Source of the DNA: a virus
Taxonomy: Duplodnaviria; Heunggongvirae; Uroviricota; Caudoviricetes
IMG/VR virus record: IMGVR_UViG_3300047202_000060
DNA length: 64,000 nucleotides
Strand: one strand, 5' to 3'
Below the pieces are notes generated by a model. That model did no database searches, was not told the origin of the DNA, and saw only the letters and a list, made by a program, of their open reading frames with translations. This document shows positions 30,902 to 53,481 of this stretch, piece after piece (positions within the stretch are counted from its first letter, which is position 1; every line of letters begins with the position of its first letter). Position numbers and translations under genes: made by a program.

Positions 30902-31435
30902 TTAACTCTTCCTTATATATTTTTGCATCTCTTCTGTTGTTCCCTTTCGAATCTCACCGTTCTTTTCCATTATTGAGTACGCCCAGACATCAAGTTGCAT
31001 TAAATCAACTTTGTTTCCCAAGCACCATTCAAGAGCCGAGAAAACAATTGGTCTTTCCATACTGTCATATTCGTCAGATTCCAAAAGCCAGCGTTTGCCT
31101 TTAGGATATTCATAGGCATACTTCTCATCCCAGATATTGCGAATAACAACTTTCCATCTTTTAGGAAGAGGAATATCTTTCGGCAAGTAAGCAAACTTTG
31201 TTCCTTCCATCCCGATAAACATCGTTCGGTTAATCGGATTCCAATAGCATCGAGTAATATCTCCCTTTCTGTTACGTCCTTCATGAGTATATTTCTCCCA
31301 GAGTCTAGCTTCAAACAAGCGTACCTCAATCACATCTTCTTTTGTCACCGACTTAAAAGCTTTTATTGCATCCTCTTTAGAGAGACTTGAGGGAACGAGA
31401 ACGTTATGAATATTCAGAGTAACCATACTTATCAT
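30902..31435 (-). CDS. hypothetical protein
   Basis: 177 aa; ATG 28 nt downstream of TTTATAA box lying inside upstream HNH ORF; antisense ORF 31000..31329 judged spurious. Confidence 0.5.
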   Translation of the reverse strand: MISMVTLNIHNVLVPSSLSKEDAIKAFKSVTKEDVIEVRLFEARLWEKYTHEGRNRKGDITRCYWNPINRTMFIGMEGTKFAYLPKDIPLPKRWKVVIRNIWDEKYAYEYPKGKRWLLESDEYDSMERPIVFSALEWCLGNKVDLMQLDVWAYSIMEKNGEIRKGTTEEMQKYIRKS

Positions 31436-31958
31436 CTTTGTAAGAAGAATAGTTATCGTCCCTTATAAACGTTGTCCCAGAACCATCGTGTTCGTTTTCT
31501 GGGTGATGAAGTTCTCTATGACATCTGCAACAGAGAAGTTGTATTTTACCATCTAAAACCAATTTAAGAAAAACTTTTGTCATATATAAATTACAATCAT
31601 CATGTTTTTCCTTAGTTTTTGGGTCAAGATGGTGAAATTCGAATACTGCCAAACAACCAATATATCCACATTTTTGACATTTGCCACCGAGTAATTTTAT
31701 CAACTCTTTTTTTCGTTTGTGTTTTCTCCCGATAACATATTCTCTAACCCATTTTTTGTTTCTTTTCTGCCAACATCTTTGTGATTCACGAACTTTCTCC
31801 AAATTGTTTAAACGATATTTTCTTCTATTTTGTGCAACTTTTTCTTTATTATTTTCATTCCACTTCTTTGACCTACAATTTTTAGAACAATATTGTTGTA
31901 TTCTATGATAATATGGATTCTGAATAAATTCTGTGCCACACACTTTACATTTTGGCAT
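31404..31958 (-). CDS. HNH endonuclease family A with N-terminal Zn ribbon and basic repeats
   Basis: MPKCKVCG...CSKNC; LLGGKCQKCGY...FHHLDP...LLCCRCHRELH; NEHDGSGTTFIRDD encoded by class I element. Confidence 0.6.
   Translation of the reverse strand: MPKCKVCGTEFIQNPYYHRIQQYCSKNCRSKKWNENNKEKVAQNRRKYRLNNLEKVRESQRCWQKRNKKWVREYVIGRKHKRKKELIKLLGGKCQKCGYIGCLAVFEFHHLDPKTKEKHDDCNLYMTKVFLKLVLDGKIQLLCCRCHRELHHPENEHDGSGTTFIRDDNYSSYKDDKYGYSEYS
31457..31494 (-). promoter_or_regulatory. class I element copy embedded in-frame in HNH ORF
   Basis: cgtcccttataaacgttgtcccagaaccatcgtgttcg. Confidence 0.4.
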
Positions 31959-34135: not shown

Positions 34136-34516
34136 TCAAGTAAACTGCACCTTTTCCCGAACAAACTCTTCTTTTGAAGACATCTTTAGGACTTTGGAAA
34201 ATCCTCTAACAGAATGTGGTCTGTTTGAAATCCCATTAGGAACAATACTTTCTATCATTATTTCACCACAAACAGTTTCTACTAATGGCTTTCCGTTTTC
34301 CTTTGCTGTATATTCAATATAAAGCCTAAACTTTGAGTTCTTTTGCCAAGCCTTATATAGACTCGAAACATCGTCCATATCGAGAAAGATTTCCCATTCG
34401 TCACAACCAACAGGGACGGGAAAACTCATCGCTTTCTTAATTGACATCTCTACTGCTACAACACTATCAAATTTCTTCTTACCCTGAGCCAGATAAGCCT
34501 TTGTAAGTTTACTCAA
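34136..34516 (-). CDS. hypothetical protein, EKVQFT tail
   Basis: 126-aa ORF. Confidence 0.5.
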   Translation of the reverse strand: MSKLTKAYLAQGKKKFDSVVAVEMSIKKAMSFPVPVGCDEWEIFLDMDDVSSLYKAWQKNSKFRLYIEYTAKENGKPLVETVCGEIMIESIVPNGISNRPHSVRGFSKVLKMSSKEEFVREKVQFT

Positions 34517-34646
34517 GTGAACTGCACCTTTATACGCCGTCTAAATTTCTTTGCTTGTTTTATCCATTTCCTTCTTCTACAAAGTAACCGCATATATTCT
34601 TCTACATCATCAAAAACATCAATATATGAATCATTAGGGATTTCTC

Positions 34647-34895
34647 TCATGTGAATTGCACCTTCTCCTTCTCTGGTGGAAATGCCAATTCAAAACTTTT
34701 CAAATATTTTATCGTTGTATAATTAAGATGATGACATTTTGGACATTCATAAATAAAGATTGATTCCCAATTACGACCTACCTCTTCTCCAATGGCAACC
34801 ATCTTTTCACTATCATAAGGACAAATACAAAACTCATCCATATCTACATTCAAGTAAACTGCACCTTCACAGGTTTCTTCTGTTCTTCTTTCCAC
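34647..34895 (-). CDS. Zn-ribbon protein, EKVQFT tail
   Basis: CICPYD...CPKCHH. Confidence 0.5.
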   Translation of the reverse strand: MERRTEETCEGAVYLNVDMDEFCICPYDSEKMVAIGEEVGRNWESIFIYECPKCHHLNYTTIKYLKSFELAFPPEKEKVQFT

Positions 34896-35059
34896 TCTTT
34901 AGCTAAATATTTCCATTTCATAATACGTGAAGCTCGTTGTCTTTCTTTATACCATACTATTGCCTTTCTTTTTCGTTCTCTTTCATTCCTTTTAGCCACT
35001 ATTACCATTGCACAAGTCAAACCACAAACTATAGCTACCATAGAAAGCAAAACTATCAT
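34850..35059 (-). CDS. small TM protein, VKVQFT tail
   Basis: N-terminal hydrophobic helix then basic tail. Confidence 0.45.
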   Translation of the reverse strand: MIVLLSMVAIVCGLTCAMVIVAKRNERERKRKAIVWYKERQRASRIMKWKYLAKEWKEEQKKPVKVQFT

Positions 35060-35250
35060 GAGAATTTCACCTTTTCCTTTTCTTTTAGATTCTCATAACA
35101 TCGCCTTGCTTTTCTACGAGTTAACCCACCTTTATATCTTGCCTTGCAAACTTTACAGAAGCATTTTCTAAGAGGCGTATCAACAGAGCATAATTTGTCT
35201 CCATTGCATTCGAAAGTTCTTCCACAGTCCCAACAAATCATTTCAATCAT
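35056..35250 (-). CDS. Zn-ribbon protein, EKVKFS tail
   Basis: CWDCGRTFEC...CFCKVC. Confidence 0.5.
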   Translation of the reverse strand: MIEMICWDCGRTFECNGDKLCSVDTPLRKCFCKVCKARYKGGLTRRKARRCYENLKEKEKVKFS

Positions 35251-35501
35251 GTGAACTCAACCTTCTCTGAGTCTCCTAGCGTTAAGAAAACGTGATTATT
35301 TTTCGGCTCAAACATTGTGCCGTCCATTTTTCTATTCCAGACACACACCAATGATTCTTTACTTATAGAGTCACATCTTCGAACGAATTGAGCACCGCAT
35401 TCATTACAAAGCATATTCACTTCTTTCTTGCATATATCTCGTGAGTGACATATAGGACATCTAGTGAAGTTTAGTTTTAACTCTATTGGTATTTTACTCA
35501 A
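35247..35501 (-). CDS. Zn-ribbon protein, EKVEFT tail
   Basis: CPICHSRDIC...CNECG. Confidence 0.5.
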   Translation of the reverse strand: MSKIPIELKLNFTRCPICHSRDICKKEVNMLCNECGAQFVRRCDSISKESLVCVWNRKMDGTMFEPKNNHVFLTLGDSEKVEFT

Positions 35502-35746
35502 GTGAACGACACCTTCATGGGTCTATTTATTCTTTTCACAGTCACCTTTAGACCTAGATAATTCGATAAATACATTGAGTGTTCATACGCATCATCATCA
35601 CAAAATTGGGCGGTATTAAGTTTTCCTTGTATTTGATAGAAAAAAACGAACTCTGCCTCTTTAGGGCATTGGTCGTTATGACCGTGCATTGCTATACATC
35701 TAACTGGTCCATTTTTTCTTATGCTATCAATAATTGTTCCTATCAA
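35498..35746 (-). CDS. hypothetical protein, MKVSFT tail
   Basis: 82-aa ORF. Confidence 0.5.
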   Translation of the reverse strand: MIGTIIDSIRKNGPVRCIAMHGHNDQCPKEAEFVFFYQIQGKLNTAQFCDDDAYEHSMYLSNYLGLKVTVKRINRPMKVSFT

Positions 35747-36036
35747 GTGAATTGCACCTTTTCCTGTTTTTTATCTAAGGTTGTTATAACTGGAATAGTT
35801 TCTGTTGGTGCTCGAACATCTGGATATTCTTTACTCTCGACAACTACGTATAAAATTGCCCTCATATAGTTGTGCGTTATTTCGACAACTTTAGCATCTG
35901 CTGGGAACCTGTTCTCTATAATCATGAAATTGTCTTTGCCATTATGACTAACAAAACTTTGCATTGAACGTTTGGTAGGCTTTAATCCCATATCTTCACA
36001 AGAACAATCTAAGAAAGGCATAAAAACTCTTCTCAT
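35743..36036 (-). CDS. hypothetical protein, EKVQFT tail
   Basis: 97-aa ORF. Confidence 0.5.
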   Translation of the reverse strand: MRRVFMPFLDCSCEDMGLKPTKRSMQSFVSHNGKDNFMIIENRFPADAKVVEITHNYMRAILYVVVESKEYPDVRAPTETIPVITTLDKKQEKVQFT

Positions 36037-36236
36037 GTGAACTGCACCTTAACAATTTTACTATCAAGAACACACCATTTATACATCTCACATTTTTCAG
36101 TACATGGCATATACTTTGATGGGTAACATTTATATCGTCCTTCCTTTTGGGCTTTAACCCATATTTGAGCATCTTTCTCATTCATGTGAACTGGACCTTC
36201 TCCCTTTTGCCCATAAGTGCTATATAAACCGTGCAA
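36033..36236 (-). CDS. hypothetical protein, VKVQFT tail
   Basis: 67-aa ORF; further cassette copies at about 36345 and 36525 mark unlisted ORFs under 60 aa. Confidence 0.45.
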   Translation of the reverse strand: MHGLYSTYGQKGEGPVHMNEKDAQIWVKAQKEGRYKCYPSKYMPCTEKCEMYKWCVLDSKIVKVQFT

Positions 36237-36616
36237 TGTTCTTTTAATCTACAAGAGTTTATACAGTATTTTTCCTTATCACTCGAATCATGTACTGTGC
36301 ATCCAGAAATACGCCAATCATTTTTTACAACTTTATAATGTATCAAGTAAATTGTACCTTCTCATTTTCTTCTATTTTTATCAAATGCTTCTTTTCTTTT
36401 TCTCCATAATGGTTAATTTGAGCCTTTGTTCCATGAGCACAAAATAATCTGCCAAACTTATCAGACTTTATTACGCATCCTTTGACAGTAAATGTGCAAC
36501 AAGTACATCTATAAGTTGTCATGTAAATTGAACCTTCTCTCTTTGATAATGTTTAGCAAGCCGTCTAAACCAGCGAAGCCGCCTGAAAATAAGTGGGTAG
36601 TTTATATCCTTTCTCA

Positions 36617-36853
36617 TCATGAAAATTGCACCTTTACTCCTAATACAATTACCTCTTTTACTTCTCTAGCTGTTACAGTTATTCCTTTCCACTCTGGGTG
36701 CTCAATTACTCGAACAAAAAGAATTGTCTCATCCGTGCTCATAAATGGACTAATTATATAACGAGAACCTATGGAAGTTACTTTGCCATGAAGTGTTTCT
36801 TCGCCACGCTCAAACACTACTACATCGCCAGTTTTTATCTTATCTATTTTCAT
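36617..36853 (-). CDS. hypothetical protein, VKVQFS tail
   Basis: 78-aa ORF. Confidence 0.45.
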   Translation of the reverse strand: MKIDKIKTGDVVVFERGEETLHGKVTSIGSRYIISPFMSTDETILFVRVIEHPEWKGITVTAREVKEVIVLGVKVQFS

Positions 36854-37168
36854 GTGAATTGAACCTTCTCCCTTTCTTTTATGACATCATAAAATCTTAT
36901 TGCGGCTCACATTCTACAAAGTTCGAAGTCATCTCTTTTGCCATCACAGCCGTTTGAGTCGAAGCATTCGCTGACATATGGACAGATGCCATTCTTCTTG
37001 AAAAATTCTAGTTCTTCATACTTATTCATGTGAACTGCACCTTTATTAATTCAGTTTTCTCTCTTTGTTTTTTCTGCATCCAAACTGCAAGCGCAACGTA
37101 CCAAGATGCTTTTCTAACTATATATGCGTCATAGAATGCTGAACCTTTAACAAAACATCTAGGGTCGC

Positions 37169-37363
37169 TCATGTAAATTCAACCACTTCTTTTGTGCATT
37201 GTTCAAACGAATATTCTTTCTGGCATTTCATACACCAGATTTTTCTAGGAATAACAAGATTTAAACCAGAACCGTCATTTAATGGTCTAAGGAAATACCC
37301 ACCTACCCCTTGAAGTCCTTCCTCATCGCCACACTTGGGACATTTCCACTTGTTGCCGCTCAT
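37169..37363 (-). CDS. Zn-ribbon protein, EVVEFT tail
   Basis: CPKCGDEE...CMKCQ. Confidence 0.5.
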   Translation of the reverse strand: MSGNKWKCPKCGDEEGLQGVGGYFLRPLNDGSGLNLVIPRKIWCMKCQKEYSFEQCTKEVVEFT

Positions 37364-37629
37364 GTAAACTCTACCTTCTCTTTTCCAGATATTAAGTCAC
37401 AAACCTCAAACTCTTTATTAGCTTTTCTCAAAGTTTTTATAAGGGGTCTATAGTGTTCTTCACAGAGATAAACCCATATAGCATAAAGAACAATTTGACG
37501 GTCCGCATCATAAACGTAATCAAATACTACTCTATATCTAGCTTTCTTTCCACATTTAGCAGACCCACATTTAGATTTTTTCTCATCATTGTCTGGTTCT
37601 CTTTTCACATCATACATTTGCGTAATCAT
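37360..37629 (-). CDS. hypothetical protein, EKVEFT tail
   Basis: 89-aa ORF. Confidence 0.5.
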   Translation of the reverse strand: MITQMYDVKREPDNDEKKSKCGSAKCGKKARYRVVFDYVYDADRQIVLYAIWVYLCEEHYRPLIKTLRKANKEFEVCDLISGKEKVEFT

Positions 37630-39963: not shown

Positions 39964-40596
39964 TTACGGAACTTTGTCTTCTGGATTCCAATGAGTTTGT
40001 TCATATTTTAAAAGCCAACTTTTATAACTTTCTTCTGTTCTACGCATTTTCTTTGTTTGTGATGTTGATTGATGGTTTATTACAATGTGAATTGCTGGTG
40101 CGTGTACTATATCTATTTCTCCATCTTTATCAAAAACTCTCCTATGATCTGTTGACCAATGCACGGTTTCTGTTTTTCTAATACACGCATATCTTAGATG
40201 TAATGCATAAGGTTTATACATTAGCCAATGCATACGATAGACTTTTTCATTAAAGTTTTCAAGTGTTTTACGAACGTCATCTCCCCATTCAACTATATAT
40301 TCATCTGAATCTATAATTAGACCCCAATCTCCATTATTGAGATATTTAAGAGATTCCGTCCGAGACTCGTGTTGATGCATAACGGACAATTGAATATAAG
40401 AAACTTTAGATTTGGAAATTTTGGCAAATTCTTCTATTACTTTATCTGTTCCATCATCTGAGTGGTCTGGACCTTCAATACCGTGCCATCTGCCGTCAAA
40501 ACACATTATCTCGTCCACTTTACCATCTATACTTTGAAGACACGGTAATATAACTTCTGAACATTGATATGTCATAATTATTGCTACAAGTTTCAT
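39964..40596 (-). CDS. glycosyltransferase family 2-like
   Basis: N-terminal KLVAIIMTYQCSE; acidic DSDEY motif; 210 aa. Confidence 0.5.
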   Translation of the reverse strand: MKLVAIIMTYQCSEVILPCLQSIDGKVDEIMCFDGRWHGIEGPDHSDDGTDKVIEEFAKISKSKVSYIQLSVMHQHESRTESLKYLNNGDWGLIIDSDEYIVEWGDDVRKTLENFNEKVYRMHWLMYKPYALHLRYACIRKTETVHWSTDHRRVFDKDGEIDIVHAPAIHIVINHQSTSQTKKMRRTEESYKSWLLKYEQTHWNPEDKVP

Positions 40597-40865
40597 TAGT
40601 CAATTACCCCTTTTATATGTAATTTTCGATGCATACAATCACCATACATGTGATTTGCTTCTCTTGGTTCTATTTCTACTCGTATATCTTTTCTTCCATT
40701 AAATTGATTTTCAAGTGCCTTTTTATGGTGGGTTGCTATCTGTTCTTTTAAATCAACAGAATAAAGTTGTGGAATCCAAATTACATCTTTTCCCTCATAT
40801 TCTCTAAACCAAACCCAAACAAGCCAAATAGGAATTTTAGTCGTAGTAAAGTCGCTTCCTATCAA
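40596..40865 (-). CDS. hypothetical protein
   Basis: 89-aa ORF. Confidence 0.4.
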   Translation of the reverse strand: MIGSDFTTTKIPIWLVWVWFREYEGKDVIWIPQLYSVDLKEQIATHHKKALENQFNGRKDIRVEIEPREANHMYGDCMHRKLHIKGVID

Positions 40866-41223
40866 CGCCTAACTCTAGTAAAGCTTTCTTTACAACATCT
40901 ACGAATTCCAAGTTTTGACGCGCTCTAGGACATTTCTCTTGTATCTCATTCCAATAATGGTCCCAGCCGTGTTCCAGACTAAAGAGTATTAATGCCGCGC
41001 AAGCTAAAGTGTTTGAACGAGACATTCCAGCCATACACCTAATAATCACTCTTTCTCCGCACCCCAATAAGTTTGCAATCAGAATAATCTTTCGTTTTAC
41101 AACCTCAATCGTGTTTTCTGCTGAATCATTTAAATCTCTCACATCTACGATAATTGTACCTTCTGGTGTGTAACTTTCGAGCATATTGCAAGTTCCTAGA
41201 TTGTTCCATATCCAATATACCAT
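40837..41223 (-). CDS. dual-specificity (CX5R) protein phosphatase-like
   Basis: P-loop IRCMAGMSRSNT matches HCxxGxxRS signature. Confidence 0.6.
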   Translation of the reverse strand: MVYWIWNNLGTCNMLESYTPEGTIIVDVRDLNDSAENTIEVVKRKIILIANLLGCGERVIIRCMAGMSRSNTLACAALILFSLEHGWDHYWNEIQEKCPRARQNLEFVDVVKKALLELGVDRKRLYYD

Positions 41224-41687
41224 TATTTCTCATTCCTCACTTTAGATTCTCTTAATCTCGTTATATCATTCCAAGAAAGACCCAAAAATCTCATACAAAA
41301 ATGGGTGAAACTATGACAAGACTTGCATAGTGGAGCAAAATCTTCTTGATGGTTTATTATGTATAATCTTGAAGAACTATGAGGATTTCCGTGTATTTCG
41401 TGAGCGTGTATTCTGTAATTATTTGGACTATACCCACAAATCAAGCATTTATTCCCCAAAAGCGAGACAATTTTTTTATTATACTTCTCGTTAGTTCTTC
41501 TTGCATTTATACGATGCCGCTCTAAATAACGAATTCTATGATTGGCATCGTAAGATTCTGTCCTCTTTCTTTTACAATCTTTACAAAGATATTCATAATT
41601 TCGTTTTCTGTATTCTGTCCAGTTTGTTCCTAAGATAAGGGCACACCCACAATCCTTGCATTTGTCTTCACGCCATTTATTTGCCAT
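41223..41687 (-). CDS. HNH endonuclease family A with N-terminal Zn ribbon
   Basis: CKDCGC...CKDCKRK; LLGNKCLICGY..HAHEIHGNPH..DFAPLCKSCHSFTH. Confidence 0.6.
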   Translation of the reverse strand: MANKWREDKCKDCGCALILGTNWTEYRKRNYEYLCKDCKRKRTESYDANHRIRYLERHRINARRTNEKYNKKIVSLLGNKCLICGYSPNNYRIHAHEIHGNPHSSSRLYIINHQEDFAPLCKSCHSFTHFCMRFLGLSWNDITRLRESKVRNEK

Positions 41688-41718
41688 CTAAACATCACCA
41701 TTATATAATACACAGATG

Positions 41719-41745
41719 GAGTATTTAAGTCTTACGGTTTAAGCC
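41719..41745 (-). promoter_or_regulatory. class II promoter element
   Basis: gagtatttaagtcttacggtttaagcc, box 34 nt upstream of 41687. Confidence 0.4.
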
Positions 41746-41969
41746 GCTTCCCGTGGAGAATTTAAATAGTCTTTTAACGCACTATTTTGGTTAATGTCCT
41801 TCTGAGTATAGCCATAGTAGGTGTCAAATACCAAACCTGTTCTACATGTGGGATTAATGCACATCCACTTACAATCGACTCTACGACCTTCTTTTTCCTC
41901 ATTAACTCTAATAAGGAATGAGTCACATTTTGGGCACTTAAGTAATATAGGGTCTTCTTCATCACTCAT
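41739..41969 (-). CDS. Zn-ribbon protein
   Basis: CPKCDSF...CINPTC; overlapping same-strand ORF 41774..41965 judged spurious. Confidence 0.5.
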   Translation of the reverse strand: MSDEEDPILLKCPKCDSFLIRVNEEKEGRRVDCKWMCINPTCRTGLVFDTYYGYTQKDINQNSALKDYLNSPREAA

Positions 41970-42098
41970 CTTTTAATTGCTCCTTCCAACACCTTTTACA
42001 TAACCATGAAAATGCATGATTCTCTGGAATCCAAGTGATATAAATCTCTTGTATAAGAATATCGTTTCCGCAACGATCACAAGATTTAATACAAACAC

Positions 42099-42338
42099 TC
42101 ATGGGTATCTCTTCTTAAATTCTTCTTCCCATTGTTTACGTTTTTCTATTTTCTTTGCGTGTTGCTTACAGTATTCACCATTAGGACCATAACCACGTTT
42201 ACGACTACATTGAAAATAATGCCAACCCGACCAATCGACTACTTCCTCTATACATCGAGTAGGGTCTTCTGGAATACCTTTAGGATTACCACCCCATTTG
42301 TCATAAACTCGTTTCTTTTGTTCAGACATATTTTTCAC
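42099..42338 (-). CDS. hypothetical basic protein
   Basis: 79-aa ORF, box 23 nt upstream. Confidence 0.45.
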   Translation of the reverse strand: MKNMSEQKKRVYDKWGGNPKGIPEDPTRCIEEVVDWSGWHYFQCSRKRGYGPNGEYCKQHAKKIEKRKQWEEEFKKRYP

Positions 42339-42359
42339 TACATATTAGATAGGTATAAA

Positions 42360-42394
42360 CCTTAATAAACTTTGTGGTAGAAAGCCCATATTCA
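42360..42394 (-). promoter_or_regulatory. class I element copy
   Basis: ccttaataaactttgtggtagaaagcccatattca; supplies TGA stop of 42392..42658. Confidence 0.4.
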
Positions 42395-42658
42395 TTTGCC
42401 CCTTCTATATTTTCTTTTCCAAAAAATCTGTACTAAACATAACACCATACTTGCAATGCAAAGGAATGATGAAATCAAAGCTCCTAGACCATAATTTCCA
42501 ATAGCAAAAAGGATATAACCTATAGTTAGTGCGAATAAGAAATTTATAGACAGACCACTAAGATTCTTTCTATTTTTGTATGCTGTAATGATTTGTGGTA
42601 TATTAGCCACAAAAAAGAGAACATTCCCTATATCTATGAGTGTTAGAAACGGAATCAA
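42392..42658 (-). CDS. small membrane protein (three TM helices)
   Basis: hydrophobic profile. Confidence 0.45.
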   Translation of the reverse strand: MIPFLTLIDIGNVLFFVANIPQIITAYKNRKNLSGLSINFLFALTIGYILFAIGNYGLGALISSFLCIASMVLCLVQIFWKRKYRRGK

Positions 42659-43077
42659 ATTTTCTCCTCTCTCGTTATATCTTTCAAAATTTCCTCAAGT
42701 TCTCTCTTAGTATGAATTATTTTATTACAAAGCGACTCTAGGAATATATTTTTAAGAGCGACAGGACACAGAAGTATCGTATATAAACCAAGTTGCCTAG
42801 CATATTCTAATTCCATCATCGTGCCACCGCAGAAGGTTTCTAAATCTGTAACAACCAAAAGGATGTCACATTCCCTGATCTTTCGAAAATCATATGCCGT
42901 AATTACGCCTTTATACTCTTCGGTATAATTTGGCGGTATTATCGGGCTATCCCCAAATCCAGCACCAAATACTTCAATCTTATATTTAGCAAACATTTTC
43001 TTGAATTTGGCAATTCGTTCAAAGGCTTCTGTAACACACACATCAATAGCACTTGCGTAGTATAAATGGAAGGTCAT
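42655..43077 (-). CDS. nucleoside 2-deoxyribosyltransferase-like (Rcl/DNPH1-like fold) protein
   Basis: VFGAGFGD...CDILLVVTDL...GGTMMELEYARQLG resembles NDT signature; weak. Confidence 0.4.
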   Translation of the reverse strand: MTFHLYYASAIDVCVTEAFERIAKFKKMFAKYKIEVFGAGFGDSPIIPPNYTEEYKGVITAYDFRKIRECDILLVVTDLETFCGGTMMELEYARQLGLYTILLCPVALKNIFLESLCNKIIHTKRELEEILKDITREEKI

Positions 43078-43304
43078 TTCTTATTCCTCAAAAGTTTTTC
43101 TATTTCCTTTTGGCATTCCAGACACTTTACTTTGAAATCTTCTGTAGTTAACCATTGATTTAACCAATTACATCTTCGTTTCCAAATTCCTTTTACTAAC
43201 TTGTCTTCAAAACAACATGGGGGAACAGAACCTTTTGCAGTTTTCCAGAGTTCTGTTGCTTCTTCTACCCTTCCTTTCTCAATTCTTTCACGTATTGTGG
43301 TCAT
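43074..43304 (-). CDS. hypothetical Cys-containing protein
   Basis: 76-aa ORF. Confidence 0.4.
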   Translation of the reverse strand: MTTIRERIEKGRVEEATELWKTAKGSVPPCCFEDKLVKGIWKRRCNWLNQWLTTEDFKVKCLECQKEIEKLLRNKK

Positions 43305-44278
43305 TTTCGATTCCTCAATCTTCTAAAGAATGCAACTATTCTATTCTCTTTGTATTCAGCTTCTACTATCTTTTTTACTATTGTATTAGTCTCTTTCTGT
43401 TCAATATGATGATCTTGACAATAATCGCAGTAAAGACGGTAAAAATCATATTCGGGGGCACTACACATATGTTTTTCCATTTCCTTTTTAATGTATGTCG
43501 CAACTACTGGCATAGCATCACGTTTTATTGAGAATTTTTCTCCCAAATCTGCATAGGCTTTATCAACCGCACCCATAGCTTCACTCAAAGGCAAAGGTGG
43601 ATATACTGGTCTGCCTTTCTCAAGTTTAGGTTGTCCCCTCGACTTAGCAGTATCCAATTTTTCTTTAGCATATAACGGGTTTCCTTCGGCAGTAAGTGTT
43701 TTCAAAACAACTCCTTCTCTGTGTTCTTTTTTACAAAGTTCCAGCATTTCATCTCTATAATTGTAAAGTGATTCCATACTGGTAAATCGTCCTTCTCCAA
43801 AGAGTTGAACACACTTCATACCATAATGGAAACAAATTTGATGAATCTGTTGATAATTAAGAAAATGATTTCCGTCAAAAATATCGAAGACTATATATTC
43901 TGTTTCTATATGATTTTCTATTCGTGTTGGAGACAATCCTTTTCTCAGAAGTTCTCCAAAAACTGTATGAGTTGGATTTTCTATAAGATATTCCAAAATT
44001 GCTTGTCGTTCCTTAGAATACTGAAAATCTCTTGTAATAGAATCTTCTGCTTTTTCCCTATTTCGACTAGAAACAACTAAATATCTTATTATTGGCTTAT
44101 GAAAGATTTTTCTCAATGATGTTTTCAGTCCAGTTATTGGCTTCATCCAGATAGCTAGACATGAACCATCACGCTTTTCGGTCCAGTAAATATAATGACC
44201 TAGAAGCACTCTACCTTCATTTGGAAGATGCTGAATTTTCTCTAATTCCATATAACGCCAAACTTTCATGAGTACCAC
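43301..44278 (-). CDS. ATP-dependent polynucleotide ligase, Rnl1-like RNA ligase candidate
   Basis: motif I KRDGS in TEKRDGSCL (compare T4 Rnl1 KEDGSL), motif IV REGVVLK, motif V LYAKEK. Confidence 0.6.
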   Translation of the reverse strand: MVLMKVWRYMELEKIQHLPNEGRVLLGHYIYWTEKRDGSCLAIWMKPITGLKTSLRKIFHKPIIRYLVVSSRNREKAEDSITRDFQYSKERQAILEYLIENPTHTVFGELLRKGLSPTRIENHIETEYIVFDIFDGNHFLNYQQIHQICFHYGMKCVQLFGEGRFTSMESLYNYRDEMLELCKKEHREGVVLKTLTAEGNPLYAKEKLDTAKSRGQPKLEKGRPVYPPLPLSEAMGAVDKAYADLGEKFSIKRDAMPVVATYIKKEMEKHMCSAPEYDFYRLYCDYCQDHHIEQKETNTIVKKIVEAEYKENRIVAFFRRLRNRK

Positions 44279-44568
44279 ATTTCTTTCTTCATTATCATCA
44301 TTTGTTTAAAGTGACAAGAAGTACATTCCCAAATTGTAAGATAGATTATTATACTGTGTTCGGGTGAATCAAATGTTTCGCTTATCTGGGCATCAATAAC
44401 CTTGCTATAAACATGACCATCACATCTGAAAATGGCATTACCTAGAGATTCCAATATATAGAGAAATCTATCTCTCAATGTGGCTGGACGTTCAATCTTA
44501 CAGAAAATAACTTCGCTAGGCTGAGAGAAGATAGCTTTATTTCTTCTCATAATCATTTCTTTGAACAT
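44266..44568 (-). CDS. hypothetical protein
   Basis: 100-aa ORF. Confidence 0.4.
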   Translation of the reverse strand: MFKEMIMRRNKAIFSQPSEVIFCKIERPATLRDRFLYILESLGNAIFRCDGHVYSKVIDAQISETFDSPEHSIIIYLTIWECTSCHFKQMMIMKKEMWYS

Positions 44569-44570
44569 AT

Positions 44571-45278
44571 TTACTTTTCCTTCTTTTTGGTTTCTTTCAT
44601 TTTCTTTTTAAGTTCGGCTATATGAGCGTCTTTCTTCTTTATATCTTCTATAAGTTTCGCGGTTTCAGGGTCAATCAACGGTATCATTTCTTCTTTTGTT
44701 GGCATTAAAGTTTGCGGTGTCTTTATTTGAGCCAAACTTGCTCGGCGTTCAGCTTCCATTACGGCACGTACCTTCTTCTGTTGCTCATATAATTCCGCTT
44801 TTCTAGTTTCCTGAAAGTCTGCTTTGGTCTTTTCCAAAATTTCATGTCTGTAAATATCTGCATTAGTTATAGTATCTGGAATTACTCTCATATTATCAGG
44901 CACACCCATTTCAAGTTTTCGTTCACGTTTTTGAGTTGCTTGGGTAGCCCTAGTTTGATAATTACGACACTTTTGACACATTGATTCTTGTGGAACCATA
45001 ACATTTTCAACTTCTGTATTCGACTCCATTTTTAATCTCCTTTCCTTTTCTTCGAAACTTCTAGTTGAACCTTCTATCTTTGTGCCCATATTATTCCATT
45101 CGGCTGGAATAGTTCTATGAAATATTTTATTACATTTAGGACAAGCAAAAACACCATCAGAAGGTTTCATCAACACAGTTCTATCATCAGAACAAGTATG
45201 TTTCTTGAAAACGTAAACCTTCAACATAGATACCCAATAATCTTGTCCACATGACATACATTTTTGTTTTTGTTTCAT
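44571..45278 (-). CDS. Zn-ribbon plus coiled-coil protein
   Basis: CMSCG...CPKCNK; C-terminal lysine-rich coiled coil. Confidence 0.5.
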   Translation of the reverse strand: MKQKQKCMSCGQDYWVSMLKVYVFKKHTCSDDRTVLMKPSDGVFACPKCNKIFHRTIPAEWNNMGTKIEGSTRSFEEKERRLKMESNTEVENVMVPQESMCQKCRNYQTRATQATQKRERKLEMGVPDNMRVIPDTITNADIYRHEILEKTKADFQETRKAELYEQQKKVRAVMEAERRASLAQIKTPQTLMPTKEEMIPLIDPETAKLIEDIKKKDAHIAELKKKMKETKKKEK

Positions 45279-45307: not shown

Positions 45308-45343
45308 CTCTATTTAAACTTTGCGTAAGAAAGACTATGCTCA
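45308..45343 (-). promoter_or_regulatory. class I element copy abutting junction cassette
   Basis: cctctatttaaactttgcgtaagaaagactatgctca, box 32 nt upstream of 45278. Confidence 0.4.
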
Positions 45344-45516
45344 AGTAAACTGCACCTTCACTTTAGCATTTTTAGGTCCGAAATAATATTTCTCAAACAT
45401 TATCTTTACACACCTGTCCATCTTCAATCTTTTACCCTCTCCAAATGAATGAATTACAGCTTCGACATATCTCGTATGCCATTTTATCTTTTTCATAAGC
45501 ATAGCAATCGATTCTG

Positions 45517-45837
45517 TCATGTAAATTGCACCTTCTCTCTATCATGCATAAACCTGTAATATTCATGAGCAAGCCATACAAACCATCTCATACAAGCTCT
45601 ACAATTGCTACCGCATTTTGTAGTAGGCGGTGCAACGCCATTATACGATTTTGTTTGCCCCATCGTCCCGCCATTCTCGGAGTCCATATCCTTTCTTGGG
45701 TTTAATGAAGACAAGTGGACCATGTGTAAAAGACATTTCTCTAGCTTCCCGCTGTACTCTTGGTATAAATTGAATTTTATCTTGTACACTCCATTCTGTT
45801 TTTTGGTTGGTTTGAATATCTTTCTTGAGAAGACCAT
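45517..45837 (-). CDS. hypothetical Cys-containing protein, EKVQFT tail; N-terminal extent uncertain
   Basis: overlaps 45641..46387 by about 197 nt in another frame; internal Met at about 45663. Confidence 0.4.
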   Translation of the reverse strand: MVFSRKIFKPTKKQNGVYKIKFNLYQEYSGKLEKCLLHMVHLSSLNPRKDMDSENGGTMGQTKSYNGVAPPTTKCGSNCRACMRWFVWLAHEYYRFMHDREKVQFT

Positions 45838-46387
45838 CAGCTATAATTTCGCCGCAACATATTTCACCATATTGAATAAGTTTATCGGTTACAGTCTGCA
45901 TCAATTCCTTGTATTCTTCTGGTGTAAATATCATTGAAAGATTAAGTGCTGTTCCAGTTATATGTACTGGAATATCCTTTTCATTAAAAAGAATCTTCGT
46001 TCTCTCTTGCCATTTTCTCCACCACCATTGAACCCATACATGAATAAATTCGGCTATTTCTTTAGTACCTTGTAAGTCTTCATGTAATCCATATAAACGA
46101 TTTGTAATTAATATAGAAAGAACATCTTCCAAATCACGAACTTCTGCAAAAGAGTGTTCTCCCTGATGGATTTTTAATTCTTGATTTTCGGATTCATCTA
46201 ATTTTTGGTGATTTCTCTCAAGATAACCTATATAATTTCGAAAATCTTGAATGCAAATTTCATAAACTTTGCGATCTTCGCCATTAAGACTTAATGATGG
46301 ACAAATCTTATCCAACTCGTTAAAAATCAAAGTATTAATCCAGAAGGTCATATCTGGGCTAAGAGTCATTAATACCGCCTCTTCCAA
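45641..46387 (-). CDS. hypothetical protein
   Basis: 248 aa with normal composition; antisense ORF 45605..45937 judged spurious. Confidence 0.5.
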   Translation of the reverse strand: MEEAVLMTLSPDMTFWINTLIFNELDKICPSLSLNGEDRKVYEICIQDFRNYIGYLERNHQKLDESENQELKIHQGEHSFAEVRDLEDVLSILITNRLYGLHEDLQGTKEIAEFIHVWVQWWWRKWQERTKILFNEKDIPVHITGTALNLSMIFTPEEYKELMQTVTDKLIQYGEICCGEIIADGLLKKDIQTNQKTEWSVQDKIQFIPRVQREAREMSFTHGPLVFIKPKKGYGLREWRDDGANKIV

Positions 46388-47978: not shown

Positions 47979-48272
47979 TCATAGAATAAATTCGGTTCGC
48001 TTTGCTCTCTCTTGCTTGTGATATTTTCTATGGCACTTTTTATGAGCCAACACTTTATACTCTGGAACATAAGTAACATGATGAATTTCTACTTTGTCTT
48101 TGCCATGTAAAGGAAAATCTTTGGCTCTAAAAGGTTCCCTACAAAAGTAACAATGAGTACCGTCAACATTAAGCATAAGTTGAATAATTTCTATCATTCG
48201 CTCTTTGAAAAGGAAAGTACGATATGCTTTGTTCAGTCTCTTCTTTCTCGATTTTGTTTTCCTCAACAGCAT
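47979..48272 (-). CDS. HNH endonuclease, short form
   Basis: CYFCREPF...IHHVTYVPEY..HKKCHRKYH. Confidence 0.5.
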   Translation of the reverse strand: MLLRKTKSRKKRLNKAYRTFLFKERMIEIIQLMLNVDGTHCYFCREPFRAKDFPLHGKDKVEIHHVTYVPEYKVLAHKKCHRKYHKQERAKRTEFIL

Positions 48273-48907
48273 TCTTCCAATATCTTAAATGCGTATCTAA
48301 TTGGAAGTGAAAGAGTTATATCTGCTGGCAAACTTCGATATTCGAATCCATGCACTTTAATCTCGAATTCTCCCAAGTTTCTTCCCGCTAAGAAAATTAT
48401 TCTCTCAAAACGCTTATCCATAGCCTTGACAATTTTTACTATTGAAAGCTGAACTCTTTTGCCATCTATAGTATAACGACTAAAGTGAATGTGTAATCCA
48501 GCAGTACCATAACCCGAATCCAATCCAGTAGCGTGACTTCCACTTGTTCCTTCATAGATATTCGCCGTCAAGTCTAAAAGAGTATTATAGTGATATTTTA
48601 TCGATAGTCGGTTTATGAATTTTTCGTCAACGATTCGTTTATGAAGATTCTCAAAATGCATATTCAATTTATATGCTTTCTCTTCCAACTCTATAAAGCG
48701 AGTTTGAAAATCTTTCAAAAGAGCTTCGGGAGTTGTTTGTGGTTCTGTCCTAATTTCCACAAGAAAGCCAAACTCGTCGTAGGGAAATCCGTAAAGGGCT
48801 GGCTCAACTACTTCATCGGTACGATTATCAATTAGCCAGTATTCTCGTTCTATTCCTATCTTATCAATATATTTATTCAATTTCTTCTTCTTTATTTGGT
48901 TCTTCAT
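48263..48907 (-). CDS. hypothetical protein (possible ligase or esterase fold, unassigned)
   Basis: GTAGLHIHFS; no confident family. Confidence 0.4.
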   Translation of the reverse strand: MKNQIKKKKLNKYIDKIGIEREYWLIDNRTDEVVEPALYGFPYDEFGFLVEIRTEPQTTPEALLKDFQTRFIELEEKAYKLNMHFENLHKRIVDEKFINRLSIKYHYNTLLDLTANIYEGTSGSHATGLDSGYGTAGLHIHFSRYTIDGKRVQLSIVKIVKAMDKRFERIIFLAGRNLGEFEIKVHGFEYRSLPADITLSLPIRYAFKILEECC

Positions 48908-52174: not shown

Positions 52175-52954
52175 TTATGATACCGTCCTCTCTGTTTGTA
52201 AATAAATTAAACTCATTTGAATAGACTCATCTGGAAGTTGTTGGTTGTTTAACCATTCAAATGCTTTGTTATTCATTTTTTTCATACCTCTACCCGTTTT
52301 AAGACAATGATATTGGTTATGTAATTCTTTTGGAATAAAAACAACGTGAGATTTATCAATATGATGCCTTACTGCCCCAATAAATGAAATATTAAGAGGA
52401 ATATAGCCTAATCCACGTCTTCTATGTCTTTCTCTTGCTTGTATTTCCGCAAATCGTTCTGGATTGTTAATTATCCATTCCTTATGTTTCTCTCTTATCT
52501 GAGAACGATGTTTCTTTGCCCATTTACTATTTCTTTTTAAAATCATATTTCTTGATAGAGGATTTTTATGATAACGAGTTTTTTCTCGTTCTCTAAATTG
52601 CGGCATATGTTCCCTATTCCATTTTAACGCCTTCTCAATTTGTTCTTCTCTATGATTGTTATAATATTCTTTACGTTGTTTCTTATGAGTTTGATAATAC
52701 TCTCTTTGCCGTAAGTTTATTTGTTTTCTAATTTCTGGATTTCTTCGGCGTTCTCGATGTGCTTCTACATCTCGTTTTTTATTTTCTGAACGGCTACGAT
52801 ATTCTTTATAATATTGTCTATATTCAGGAGATTTCCGTTTTATTCTAGCAATTTCTTTATCTCGTGCTCTGATTTGTTCAAGATGGGTTTGACGATATTT
52901 TCTACAAGAATCTCGATTATGCTCTTTTCTTTCCTCCTCTGATAAAAACATCAT
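52175..52954 (-). CDS. HNH endonuclease family B with very long basic repeat N-terminus
   Basis: GLGYIPLNISF..RHHIDKSHVVFIPKELHNQYHC..AFEWL; repeats REYYQTHKKQRKEYYNNHREE. Confidence 0.6.
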   Translation of the reverse strand: MMFLSEEERKEHNRDSCRKYRQTHLEQIRARDKEIARIKRKSPEYRQYYKEYRSRSENKKRDVEAHRERRRNPEIRKQINLRQREYYQTHKKQRKEYYNNHREEQIEKALKWNREHMPQFREREKTRYHKNPLSRNMILKRNSKWAKKHRSQIREKHKEWIINNPERFAEIQARERHRRRGLGYIPLNISFIGAVRHHIDKSHVVFIPKELHNQYHCLKTGRGMKKMNNKAFEWLNNQQLPDESIQMSLIYLQTERTVS

Positions 52955-53481
52955 TTTATCTCCTTATGTGGGCAAACGCCATAAAACCCTTTAGCAAGAT
53001 TACAATTATGACACAAAACTTGGTATCCTTCGGGATAACCATTTCGCTTGAGCCAAAGATAAAAATCTGTTCCTTTAACCGTCTGTTTTCTATGCTTATT
53101 TCCACCACCATTAATGTGGTCAATTGACAAGAACTTTATCTCGGTTTCGCCACAGCAGATACACTTAGAAACGCCATTGCTATAATGAGTTAACACTTCT
53201 AATCTAATTTTTTGCCTGTTTTTTTGGCAAGTAATTCTTCGTTGTTCTTTATGAGTTTTAGCCCATTCATTATTTTTTCTGCATATTGCTCCCTTATGTT
53301 TCTGATAATATTCTCTTTTTTTCCTACAATATTCTTCACGGTGTTTTATCCACTTCTCTTTTTGTCGTTCCCTGATTTCTTCCCTATGGTTTTCATAATA
53401 CTCTTTTCCCTTTTGATTATAATACTCTTTATGAGACCGTTGATATTTATGTTGGGCTTGATATTTCTCAGGTTCTTCCAA
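52951..53481 (-). CDS. HNH endonuclease with basic repeat N-terminus, coupled (ATGA) to downstream HNH-B gene
   Basis: CICCGETE..IDHINGGGN..VLCHNCNLAKG; repeats KEYYNQKGKEYYENHREE. Confidence 0.6.
   Translation of the reverse strand: MEEPEKYQAQHKYQRSHKEYYNQKGKEYYENHREEIRERQKEKWIKHREEYCRKKREYYQKHKGAICRKNNEWAKTHKEQRRITCQKNRQKIRLEVLTHYSNGVSKCICCGETEIKFLSIDHINGGGNKHRKQTVKGTDFYLWLKRNGYPEGYQVLCHNCNLAKGFYGVCPHKEIK

What the first reader, a model, noticed from the sequence alone, without database searches (positions are those of the whole stretch)
39964..44278. GT2, CX5R phosphatase, nucleoside deoxyribosyltransferase-like protein and Rnl1-like RNA ligase cluster
The ligase has nucleotidyltransferase motifs I (KRDGS), IV (EGVVLK) and V (LYAKEK) most like T4 Rnl1. 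Nearby sit a dual-specificity phosphatase fold (CMAGMSRS), an NDT/Rcl-like protein and an HNH gene. Together these resemble an RNA or tRNA end-healing and sealing tool-kit. That would counter anticodon-nuclease-type host defence, or could be a nucleotide-modification pathway. No polynucleotide kinase was recognised.
Basis: partly seen in the sequence, partly recalled or inferred. Interest (0 to 1): 0.6.

Follow-up and report, generated by a model that had tools for sequence, protein, structure and literature searches.

The report
Viral RNA ligase, phosphatase, glycosyltransferase block
A large uncultivated virus, probably of archaea, carries an RNA ligase of an uncharacterised virus-borne family next to a small cysteine phosphatase, a glycosyltransferase and a nucleoside-transferase-like enzyme, but the genes do not form a recognisable RNA-repair kit.

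Summary

Synteny over about 50 related loci shows ligase, phosphatase and GT2 as a recurrent trio in one virus lineage. They are directly adjacent in the nearest relative. The window's NDT, PQ-loop, zinc-ribbon and HNH genes are variable inserts.

Outside that lineage the ligase occurs without the phosphatase, near DNA polymerase, PCNA, thymidylate synthase or sugar genes. The NDT gene elsewhere is coupled to dCMP deaminase and DNA polymerase B. The window holds no polynucleotide kinase, HAD or 2H phosphoesterase, RtcB, tRNA gene or Rfam family.

So this is a stand-alone sealing ligase inside a mosaic accessory block. A heal-and-seal RNA toolkit is not supported, but cannot be excluded by computation. 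Interest is moderate.

The parts
43301..44278 (-). ATP-dependent polynucleotide (RNA) ligase. The ORF is 325 aa from a GTG. The likely start is the ATG at 44269, giving 322 aa (P0001). The nucleotidyltransferase domain spans about residues 25-205 and a five-helix C-terminal domain about 228-321.
44266..44568 (-). orf100, unknown function. Its stop overlaps the ligase ATG by 4 nt.
   Evidence: No Pfam or PHROG hit.
43074..43304 (-). orf76, a small protein with a CxxC pair. It has 4-nt overlaps with the ligase and with NDT.
   Evidence: Only weak, sub-threshold family hits. Among the fetched loci it is found only in the window's own strain.
42655..43077 (-). Nucleoside 2'-deoxyribosyltransferase-fold protein of 140 aa, with conserved Tyr6/7, Asp63, Glu89 and Asn110.
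   Evidence: PF05014 E 6.7e-6. The family alignment shows the invariant residues. AF2 pLDDT 79. Foldseek best hits are NDTs (7o62, E 3e-4, TM 0.65), YtoQ and DNPH1.
42392..42658 (-). PQ-loop, SemiSWEET-like small membrane protein of 88 aa.
   Evidence: PF04193 E 1e-8, above the cut-off. NCBIfam SemiSWEET_2 is a weak hit. It lies next to NDT here and in L066, and next to the phosphatase in L006 and L076.
42099..42338 (-). zn79, a small Cys-rich protein of unknown function.
   Evidence: Found only in the window's own strain.
41739..41969 (-). zn76, a zinc-ribbon protein that recurs upstream of the phosphatase in relatives.
   Evidence: tblastn matches of 72-85% in L025, L030, L031 and L034.
41223..41687 (-). 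Free-standing HNH homing-endonuclease-like gene, read here as a mobile insert.
   Evidence: phrog_2255 E 4.6e-6. One of 11 ORFs in the window's HNH BLAST cluster. Its position varies between relatives: between the phosphatase and GT2 in L026, after GT2 in L006.
40837..41223 (-). Minimal cysteine phosphatase of the dual-specificity type, 128 aa. P-loop C63-x5-R69, putative general acid D33.
   Evidence: PF00782 E 2e-6. PDB matches: DUSP16 E 4e-4 and the archaeal PTP 5z5b. 44 relatives were found, and the catalytic residues are invariant in the 29 aligned.
40596..40865 (-). orf89, a small ORF between the phosphatase and GT2. Relatives carry a different ORF of similar size (c44) in that position, or none.
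39964..40596 (-). Small GT-A (GT2) glycosyltransferase of 210 aa with a DSD motif. It is the constant neighbour of the phosphatase.
   Evidence: PF00535 at 23.4 bits against a cut-off of 23.3. It lies next to the phosphatase in L006, L024, L026-L030, L034, L036, L042 and L077.
44571..45278 (-). orf235, a zinc-ribbon plus coiled-coil protein. It is the backbone marker that precedes the ligase slot in relatives.
   Evidence: tblastn and HMM hits in L006, L028, L030, L034, L037, L040, L042, L053 and L066. L077 carries a 235-aa ORF in the same position, judged by size only. No family hit.
45641..46387 (-). orf248, a backbone marker of the same lineage. Function unknown.

Best explanation
The interval is part of a densely packed, one-strand accessory block in a large uncultivated tailed virus, probably of archaea. 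Many of its genes are linked by overlapping stop and start codons. It is a mosaic, not one pathway.

(1) The ligase is a classical ATP-dependent polynucleotide ligase. It comes from an uncharacterised, almost entirely virus or metagenome-borne branch of the PF09414 ligases. It has a full nucleotidyltransferase domain with motifs I to V. It lacks the Rnl3 N-terminal and dimerisation domains and the Rnl5 OB domain, and it has its own five-helix C-terminal domain. By inference from the conserved motifs, it reacts with ATP at Lys35 (Lys32 in the 322-aa form), transfers AMP to a 5'-phosphate end and seals it to a 3'-OH. Because the virus encodes no end-healing enzymes, it can only join ends that already carry 3'-OH and 5'-phosphate. 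Such ends could be nicks in duplex RNA or RNA-DNA, or breaks left by metal-dependent nucleases.

(2) The cysteine phosphatase and GT2, often with the PQ-loop protein, form a persistent unit. In this lineage it follows the ligase slot. Its substrate is unknown. A sugar, glycan or protein target is as likely as an RNA end.

(3) The NDT-fold enzyme acts on the deoxynucleoside or deoxynucleotide pool.

(4) HNH is a selfish homing endonuclease.

Shown: gene identities, conserved catalytic residues, folds, synteny. Inferred: substrates and biological roles.
For: - Ligase family and motifs. It is a discrete family, with 153 50%-identity clusters at E<=1e-30 aligned end to end.
- It is virus-borne and probably archaeal. 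The best GenBank hit is a Methanofastidiosa-assigned virus. Relatives carry an HK97-type capsid, PCNA, MCM, topoisomerase VI A, Rad51 and archaeal AdoMet synthase. Among species genomes it appears only on three short MAG contigs.
- Mosaic structure. L077 has orf235, a 94-aa ORF, ligase, phosphatase and GT2 in direct succession. The window adds orf76, NDT, PQ, zn79, zn76 and HNH. L028, L030 and L034 instead carry an HExxH protein, a PRTase-like protein and a 225-aa protein between ligase and phosphatase. L037, L040 and L042 have the backbone and phosphatase but no ligase. L003, L005, L073, L074, L075 and the IMG/VR clades have the ligase without the phosphatase.
- NDT is coupled to dCMP deaminase and DNA polymerase B in L068.
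- No healing enzymes, tRNA genes, Rfam families or PADLOC defence models in the window.
Against: - Ligase, phosphatase and GT2 stay within a few kb through rearrangements (L076, L006, L054, weakly L020). The ligase slot is filled by two clades only 30-34% identical, while flanking genes are 53-71% identical. This hints at selection to keep a ligase with these partners, which a pure mosaic reading does not explain.
- All substrates are inferred.
- The synteny sample is biased: many loci were fetched through the phosphatase, and most belong to one virus group.
Confidence: 0.55

Rival explanations
1. The cysteine phosphatase heals RNA ends cut by host ribotoxins, the ligase seals them, and the kit counters anticodon-nuclease-type defence. 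A host kinase would supply the 5'-phosphate. Alternatively the breaks come from metal-dependent toxins and need no kinase.
For: - The ligase belongs to an RNA-ligase family.
- Ligase and phosphatase are adjacent in L077, within 1.3-2.8 kb in six or more lineages, and close but rearranged in L076.
- The catalytic residues of both proteins are under strict conservation.
- Phage RNA ligases are generally read as counter-defence (Iyer et al. 2021, PMC7824862).
Against: - No polynucleotide kinase, 2H, HAD or metallophosphoesterase, RtcB, RlaP or tRNA gene in 64 kb. In jumbo phages those partners track the RNA ligases.
- The P-loop is the CxAGxSRS type. The best PDB matches are protein and glucan phosphatases.
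- No cysteine phosphatase is known to heal RNA 3' ends (my own knowledge).
- The phosphatase persists with GT2 where the ligase is absent (L037, L040, L042). The ligase persists without the phosphatase in most lineages.
- The one kinase-like neighbour found, in L008-L013, is a guanylate-kinase-type fusion beside thymidylate synthase and ribonucleotide reductase.
Confidence: 0.15
2. The ligase serves genome replication or repair. It would be a nick-sealing enzyme of the Rnl2 or Rnl5 kind that joins a ribonucleotide-ended 3'-OH strand to 5'-phosphate DNA or RNA in duplexes. It would be unrelated in function to the phosphatase and GT2.
For: - In other clades the ligase sits next to DNA polymerase B, thymidylate synthase and ribonucleotide reductase (L008-L013). 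It also sits next to topoisomerase VI A (L018), Rad51-type recombinase (L005, L075), MCM (L073) and PCNA (vir521).
- The top structural matches include the nick-sealing NgrRnl and T4 Rnl2.
- Ligase genes are split by HNH insertions in L021 and L054, as often happens to core replication genes.
Against: - There is no OB domain as in DNA ligases or Rnl5.
- Homology of the C-terminal domain to that of Rnl2 was not demonstrable.
- In the window's own clade the neighbours are mostly sugar-metabolism and unknown genes, not replication genes.
- Context in gene-dense viruses is weak evidence.
Confidence: 0.2
3. Ligase, phosphatase, GT2, the PQ-loop protein and NDT act in one nucleic-acid modification pathway. 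One version is glycosylation of viral DNA or of repaired RNA. In that version GT2 would protect the joined site much as Hen1 methylation does in bacterial Pnkp-Hen1 repair.
For: - The four or five families recur together in different orders in the window, L006, L066 and L076.
- GT2 is translationally coupled to the ligase in L076, and a GT2 paralogue directly precedes the ligase in L006.
- NDT and a PRTase-like gene occupy the ligase-phosphatase interval in different relatives.
- NDT genes have been linked to DNA-precursor pool editing in phages (bioRxiv 10.1101/2025.10.22.683976).
Against: - Sugar genes make up roughly 18% of the genes in these loci. Ligase-sugar adjacency (5 of 8 lineages within two genes) is therefore about what chance gives (my estimate).
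- The window has no hydroxymethylase or base-modifying enzyme.
- The members are separable.
- The GT2 in L076 is a different subtype (HMM E 3e-5).
Confidence: 0.1

Closest known systems
Rnl3 family (Pyrococcus abyssi Pab1020, Palaeococcus pacificus and Methanothermobacter MthRnl archaeal RNA ligases)
   Different: The window protein starts only about 25 residues before motif I, so it lacks the Rnl3 N-terminal domain. No dimerisation or C-terminal Rnl3 domain was matched. The TIGR01209 score is 29 bits against a cut-off of 137.
Rnl2 family (T4 gp24.1, T4-like phage Rnl2)
   Same: This is the top Foldseek hit (2hvr, E 2.4e-9). Rnl2 proteins are the only named ligases matched in the GenBank phage collection (24% identity). 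hhalign against a phage Rnl2 gives E 3.8e-5. Both share the layout of a nucleotidyltransferase domain followed by a helical C-terminal domain.
Rnl5 family (Naegleria NgrRnl, Deinococcus DraRnl)
   Different: Rnl5 has an N-terminal OB domain and no C-terminal domain (PMC7261155). The window protein has the reverse layout.
T4 Rnl1 with Pnkp, the tRNA repair system that counters the PrrC anticodon nuclease
   Same: Both are virus-encoded ATP-dependent RNA ligases with a KxDG lysine and motifs IV and V.
   Different: PF09511 is not hit by the window protein. Rnl1 ranks low structurally. There is no Pnkp and no kinase or HAD phosphatase in the window.
Classical dual-specificity and small archaeal cysteine phosphatases (DUSP16, DUSP10, DUSP22, the archaeal PTP 5z5b, laforin, PTPMT1)
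   Same: The protein has a CxAGxSRS P-loop and an Asp about 30 residues upstream. These are its best PDB matches.
   Different: At 128 aa it is shorter than any of them. It is virus-encoded, always lies beside a GT2, and its substrate is unknown.
Nucleoside 2'-deoxyribosyltransferases and DNPH1/Rcl
   Same: The fold matches, and the residue pattern resembles the Tyr/Asp/Glu catalytic set.
   Different: It is below the Pfam cut-off, shares under 20% identity with solved enzymes, and has a low-confidence loop at residues 40-60. Whether it is a transferase or a hydrolase is unknown.

Membership tests
ATP-dependent polynucleotide ligases (covalent nucleotidyltransferase superfamily) | Motifs I (KxDG), III, IIIa, IV and V, with the catalytic lysine | tested here: met
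   K32, D34, G35, E106, F128, D129, E185, G186, K190, K202 and K204 are invariant in 41 sequences. PF09414 is hit by 41 of 41.
Rnl1 (T4 gp63) | Rnl1-type nucleotidyltransferase signature (Pfam PF09511) | tested here: not met
   There is no PF09511 hit for the window protein at E<=1. Only 3 of 41 relatives hit it, and weakly.
Rnl1 (T4 gp63) | Rnl1-specific C-terminal helical domain | tested here: inconclusive
Rnl2 (T4 gp24.1) | All-helical C-terminal domain homologous to that of T4 Rnl2 | tested here: inconclusive
Rnl3 (Pab1020, MthRnl) | N-terminal domain and dimerisation domain flanking the nucleotidyltransferase domain | tested here: not met
   The protein begins about 25 residues before motif I. 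The PDB profile alignment starts at residue 75-86 of the Rnl3 chains. TIGR01209 scores 29 bits against a cut-off of 137.
Rnl5 (NgrRnl) | N-terminal OB domain, with the nucleotidyltransferase domain at the C-terminus | tested here: not met
   The match to NgrRnl covers its residues 147-322 only. The window protein has no N-terminal extension and does have a C-terminal domain.
Phage heal-and-seal RNA repair system (T4 Pnkp with Rnl1, or bacterial Pnkp-Hen1 type) | 5'-OH polynucleotide kinase | tested here: not met
   Only four proteins in the window carry a Walker A motif. Three are a MoxR AAA, a STAND/ResIII-like protein and a KaiC/RecA-like protein. The fourth, 30581-30898 (105 aa), matched no Pfam family at E<=1e-4. 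No kinase family appears in Pfam scans of 81 window proteins.
Phage heal-and-seal RNA repair system | 2',3'-cyclic phosphodiesterase or 3'-phosphatase of the HAD, 2H or metallophosphoesterase type | tested here: not met
   No such motif or Pfam family was found. ORF 48263-48907 is a weak amidoligase-like match, not a phosphoesterase.
Phage heal-and-seal RNA repair system | Linkage of ligase and healing enzyme conserved across unrelated genomes | tested here: not met
   The phosphatase lies near the ligase only in one virus group. It is absent within 8-10 kb in L003, L005, L073-L075, L008-L019, L021-L023 and vir521.
Cysteine phosphatases, dual-specificity type (PF00782) | C-x5-R P-loop and an upstream general-acid Asp | tested here: met
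   C63, G66, R69, S70, N71 and D33 are invariant in 29 sequences.
Cysteine phosphatases, dual-specificity type (PF00782) | Pfam score above the gathering threshold | tested here: not met
   The window protein scores 28.0 bits against 33.5. Nearly all 44 relatives carry a precomputed PF00782 hit.
RNA 5'-phosphatase subgroup (baculovirus BVP, PIR1/DUSP11) | HCTHGxNRT-type P-loop (recalled from my own knowledge, not checked against a model) | tested here: not met
   The sequence is RCMAGMSRSNT. No BVP or DUSP11 chain appears among the 38 PDB matches.
Nucleoside 2'-deoxyribosyltransferase / DNPH1 (PF05014) | NDT fold with a catalytic Glu in a GTxxExxYA-like motif, plus Tyr and Asp | tested here: met
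   The Foldseek top hits are NDTs, YtoQ and DNPH1. Y6, D63, E89 and Y92 are invariant. The residue equivalence is by pattern, not by superposition.
Nucleoside 2'-deoxyribosyltransferase / DNPH1 (PF05014) | Transferase or hydrolase activity on deoxynucleosides or deoxynucleotides | not testable with these tools
   This needs an enzyme assay.
GT2 (GT-A) glycosyltransferases | PF00535 match and a DxD motif | tested here: met
   It scores 23.4 bits against 23.3, which is marginal. The DSD motif is conserved in paralogues and orthologues.
PQ-loop / SemiSWEET | PQ-loop repeat in a protein of about 90 aa with three transmembrane segments | tested here: met
   PF04193 scores 35.2 bits against 22. The PQ motif is present in the sequence. 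Transport activity was not tested.

The most novel reading that the evidence does not exclude
The ligase would found a further structural family of ATP-dependent RNA ligases, with a nucleotidyltransferase domain and a new helical C-terminal domain, confined to viruses of archaea. It would work with the minimal cysteine phosphatase, and possibly the GT2, in a kinase-independent RNA end-processing pathway. For example, the phosphatase could trim 5'-polyphosphate or 3'-phosphate ends, the ligase could seal or circularise the RNA, and GT2 could mark the product against re-cleavage. The analogy is to Pnkp-Hen1, but the chemistry would be unprecedented.
Probability: 0.1. Interest if true: 0.75.

Novelty: new variant of a known kind. 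Interest (0 to 1): 0.4.

Why it matters
RNA ligase families are defined by the domain fused to the shared catalytic module (PMC7261155). This family has at least 153 sequence clusters and no characterised member. Its C-terminal domain matched nothing in the searches made here. It sits in viruses that appear to infect archaea, where RNA-level conflict is little studied.

It could yield a new ligase specificity for biology and for RNA tools. The recurrent pairing with a very small cysteine phosphatase and a glycosyltransferase gives a concrete, testable question about what such phosphatases do in viruses.

As it stands, the finding mainly corrects an over-reading. It is not a T4-style tRNA repair kit.

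Tried and rejected
- **DNA similarity to known phages.** None was found. The phosphatase protein also has no hit in GenBank phages.
- **Single-sequence PDB searches** for the ligase, NDT and GT2 returned nothing. Profiles or structure models were needed.
- **A hidden kinase or phosphoesterase.** I scanned for Walker A, HAD, 2H and metallophosphoesterase motifs and ran Pfam on 81 window proteins. None qualified.
It carries GxExE, HxH and ExR-like motifs (my reading of the sequence). A 0.047 hit to AKAP7 looks like chance. It is not a kinase or a 2H enzyme.
- **The HAD plus P-loop fusion two genes from the ligase in L008-L013** looked like a reversed Pnkp. Its kinase half matches guanylate kinases, and it sits among thymidylate synthase and ribonucleotide reductase genes. 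I rejected it as an RNA kinase.
- **Homology of the ligase C-terminal domain to T4-type Rnl2.** The full-length hhalign alignment runs into the C-terminal domain. The domain alone does not beat shuffled controls, so this stays unproven.
- **Ligase linked to sugar metabolism.** I rejected this as a specific signal, because sugar genes are abundant throughout these loci.
- **PADLOC, Rfam and tRNA scans** were all negative.

Full report
**What is there.** The window is about 35% G+C and 91% coding, with every gene on the minus strand. In transcription order, 44568 to 39964 holds:
- orf100;
- the ligase (43301-44278);
- orf76;
- an NDT-fold protein (42655-43077);
- a PQ-loop protein (42392-42658);
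- small Cys-rich ORFs;
- an HNH endonuclease (41223-41687);
- a cysteine phosphatase (40837-41223);
- orf89;
- a GT2 (39964-40596).

orf100, ligase, orf76, NDT and PQ overlap by 4 nt each. HNH and the phosphatase overlap by 1 nt, the phosphatase and orf89 by 29 nt, and orf89 and GT2 by 1 nt (coordinates). Such overlaps recur at many junctions across the window, so they are weak evidence for shared function. Near-identical copies occur in two other sequencing runs (L001, L002).

**Check of the observation.**
- The ligase hits PF09414 (E 7.5e-14).
- The PQ-loop protein hits PF04193 (E 1e-8).
- GT2 is exactly at the PF00535 cut-off.
- The phosphatase (PF00782, E 2e-6) and NDT (PF05014, E 6.7e-6) fall just below their cut-offs.

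Family alignments rescue the last two. In 29 phosphatase relatives C63, G66, R69, S70, N71 and D33 are invariant. In 28 NDT relatives Y6, D63, E89 and Y92 are invariant. The NDT model (pLDDT 79) best matches nucleoside 2'-deoxyribosyltransferases, YtoQ and DNPH1.

**The ligase is not Rnl1-like.**
- PF09511 does not hit the window protein. All 41 aligned relatives hit PF09414 and only 3 weakly hit PF09511.
- A profile of the family finds Rnl3 (8uce and 2vug, E 2e-9) and Rnl5 (NgrRnl, E 7e-9) in the PDB. It finds T4 Rnl2 only at E 0.2, and no Rnl1.
- The AF2 model has pLDDT 92. Foldseek ranks T4 Rnl2, then Rnl3, then NgrRnl, with T4 Rnl1 32nd.

hhalign against a T4-like Rnl2 is significant overall (E 3.8e-5). 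The C-terminal domain alone scores like shuffled sequence. RNA ligase families are defined by their flanking domains (PMC7261155). On that criterion the protein fails Rnl3 (no N-terminal domain) and Rnl5 (no OB domain). Membership of Rnl2 is unresolved.

The family is discrete. 153 50%-identity clusters match end to end at E<=1e-30. It is almost absent from species genomes, appearing on three short MAG contigs only. The closest record in the GenBank phage collection is an unannotated protein of a Methanofastidiosa-assigned tailed virus, near PCNA.

**What kind of genome this is.** Relatives carry an HK97-type capsid, terminase, MCM with an intein, topoisomerase VI A, a Rad51-type recombinase, archaeal-type AdoMet synthase and many sugar-modifying genes. 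The window itself holds a PAPS-reductase-like gene, a MoxR plus VWA pair, a KaiC/RecA-like ATPase, an SPFH protein, a kelch protein and a UDP-GlcNAc 2-epimerase/GT cluster. A large tailed virus of archaea is the most economical reading, but the host is inferred.

**Synteny test of the toolkit idea.** I collected ligase-anchored loci, phosphatase-anchored loci and NDT-anchored loci. I scored them with tblastn, clustering and HMMs.

- One virus lineage shares the backbone orf248, orf235, [slot], phosphatase, GT2, c9, c10, c14.
- In the nearest relative, L077 (ligase 71% identical), the order is orf235, a 94-aa ORF, ligase, phosphatase, GT2 with nothing between.
- The window adds orf76, NDT, PQ, three small ORFs and HNH between the ligase and the phosphatase.
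- L028/L053, L030/L031 and L034 instead carry an HExxH (SprT-like) protein, a PRTase-like protein and a 225-aa protein there. Their ligase belongs to a different clade, only 30-34% identical, while orf235, the phosphatase and GT2 are 53-71% identical.
- L037, L040 and L042 keep the backbone and phosphatase but have no ligase.
- L006 has PQ, phosphatase and GT2 adjacent, with the ligase 6 kb away.
- L066 has orf235, NDT, PQ, one ORF and GT2. Its phosphatase lies 5 kb downstream and its ligase 6.6 kb upstream.
- L076 has DegT, PQ, phosphatase, an oxidoreductase, a small ORF, the ligase, and a GT2 of another subtype.
- The ligase stands alone, with no phosphatase within 8-10 kb, in L003, L005, L073, L074, L075, vir521 and all IMG/VR clades. 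The one exception is a weak hit in L020.

In those stand-alone lineages the neighbours are DNA polymerase B, thymidylate synthase, ribonucleotide reductase, topoisomerase VI A, Rad51, MCM and PCNA, or sugar genes.

The HAD plus P-loop fusion near the ligase in L008-L013 has a guanylate-kinase-type kinase, not a polynucleotide kinase. NDT in L068 overlaps the end of a dCMP deaminase gene next to DNA polymerase B.

**Absence of healing functions.** The window has no tRNA gene, no Rfam family and no PADLOC hit. It has no Walker-A protein that could be a polynucleotide kinase, and no HAD, 2H or metallophosphoesterase motif or Pfam family. In jumbo phages those partners track the presence of RNA ligases (PMC7824862). 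The phosphatase's P-loop and its PDB matches are of the classical dual-specificity, small archaeal PTP, laforin and PTPMT1 kind.

**Interpretation.** The data support a functional, stand-alone sealing ligase of a new virus-borne branch. It is embedded in a mosaic accessory block.

The lineage-conserved trio of ligase, phosphatase and GT2 is real, and its persistence through rearrangement is not fully explained. That keeps a functional link alive at roughly 0.3. A T4-style heal-and-seal kit is unlikely, at about 0.15.

The NDT gene belongs to deoxynucleotide metabolism. The HNH gene is selfish, one of 11 ORFs in the window that cluster with it, and HNH genes even split the ligase gene in L021 and L054.

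Substrate and biological role cannot be settled by computation. The assays listed under next steps would decide.

**Limits.**
- Many loci were reached through the phosphatase, which biases the sample.
- Most loci belong to one virus group, so they are not independent.
- Contigs are short.
- The estimate that ligase-sugar adjacency is at chance level is a rough count from Pfam tables.

Noticed in passing
window, 24 sites on the minus strand, e.g. 34136-37377, 45341-45358, 45517-45534, 11487-13479: An 18-nt junction cassette, AAGGTNCARTTYACWTGA, occurs 24 times, always on the coding strand. Chance expectation is 0.01. It combines a Shine-Dalgarno-like AAGGTG, a conserved 8-nt spacer, and a start codon overlapping the upstream stop (ATGA or TTGA). 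It gives many small ORFs the same C-terminal peptide, EKVQFT. It also occurs in the related viruses L006, L024, L028, L034, L053 and L066, but not in distant ligase loci. The conserved spacer suggests a regulatory or processing site, not just a ribosome-binding site.
   Followed up: partly
window 2868-3356, 4134-4844, 7959-8393, 10804-11235, 15020-15574, 24583-25029, 29116-29745, 31404-31958, 41223-41687, 52175-52954, 52951-53481; L021:9010-10543; L054:14905-16542: HNH-endonuclease-like ORFs appear to be very abundant. Eleven ORFs in 64 kb fall into one single-linkage BLAST cluster with the phrog-confirmed HNH at 41223-41687; most were not scanned individually. In two relatives an HNH gene sits inside the ligase gene and splits it into two ORFs. 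This suggests homing into a conserved gene, possibly through an intron or a split gene.
   Followed up: partly
L028:1494-2636, L030:1849-2775, L034:6293-7411 compared with window 43301-44278: The same genomic slot, after orf235, is filled by ligases of two clades only 30-34% identical, while flanking genes are 53-71% identical. This looks like in-place replacement or differential loss of paralogues. Clade-B ligases also carry an N-terminal module (IPEGFEWD...CNN) that is a separate 77-aa ORF upstream of the ligase in L003, so a gene fusion or fission has occurred.
   Followed up: partly
window 48263-48907 (-): This 214-aa protein is a weak match to the phiEco32-type COOH-NH2 (glutamine-synthetase-like) amidoligases. 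It carries GxExE, HxH and ExR-like motifs. It is followed by a small HNH gene (47979-48272). It was not found in any of the relatives fetched.
   Followed up: partly
window 55241-63575 (-): A glycan-biosynthesis cluster lies here: UDP-GlcNAc 2-epimerase (56380-57531), GT2/Anp1-like transferases (61249-62226, 62235-63575) and several unannotated ORFs. Relatives carry still larger sets, with DegT aminotransferases, epimerases, acetyltransferases and GT1/GT4 enzymes. This suggests virus-directed glycosylation.
   Followed up: no
window 42392-42658 (-); L006:15003-15308; L066:8432-8740; L076:5718-6023; L063:3051-3344: A SemiSWEET-like PQ-loop membrane protein is encoded by these viruses. It recurs next to the phosphatase or the NDT gene. 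A virus-encoded half-transporter of this family looks unusual and is unexplained.
   Followed up: partly
window 5433-6701, 6924-7820, 8439-10205, 21307-22203, 22473-23912, 26623-27558, 53940-54824: Other recognisable genes are a PAPS-reductase-like protein, a MoxR-type AAA ATPase with a VWA partner, an SPFH/Band 7 protein, a protein with four InlB B-repeats, a KaiC/RecA-like ATPase and a trypsin-like peptidase. A kelch-repeat protein and a GNAT also appear among the remaining ORFs, but their positions were not mapped.
   Followed up: no
L028:3291-3647, L053:5827-6183, L003:10979-11341: A minimal PRTase-like protein of 118-120 aa (PF00156, with a VDDVVDTGGT motif) follows the ligase in L003. 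In L028 and L053 it lies between the ligase and the phosphatase, in the position that NDT occupies in the window. A nucleotide-salvage-type enzyme is therefore a recurrent guest in this slot.
   Followed up: partly
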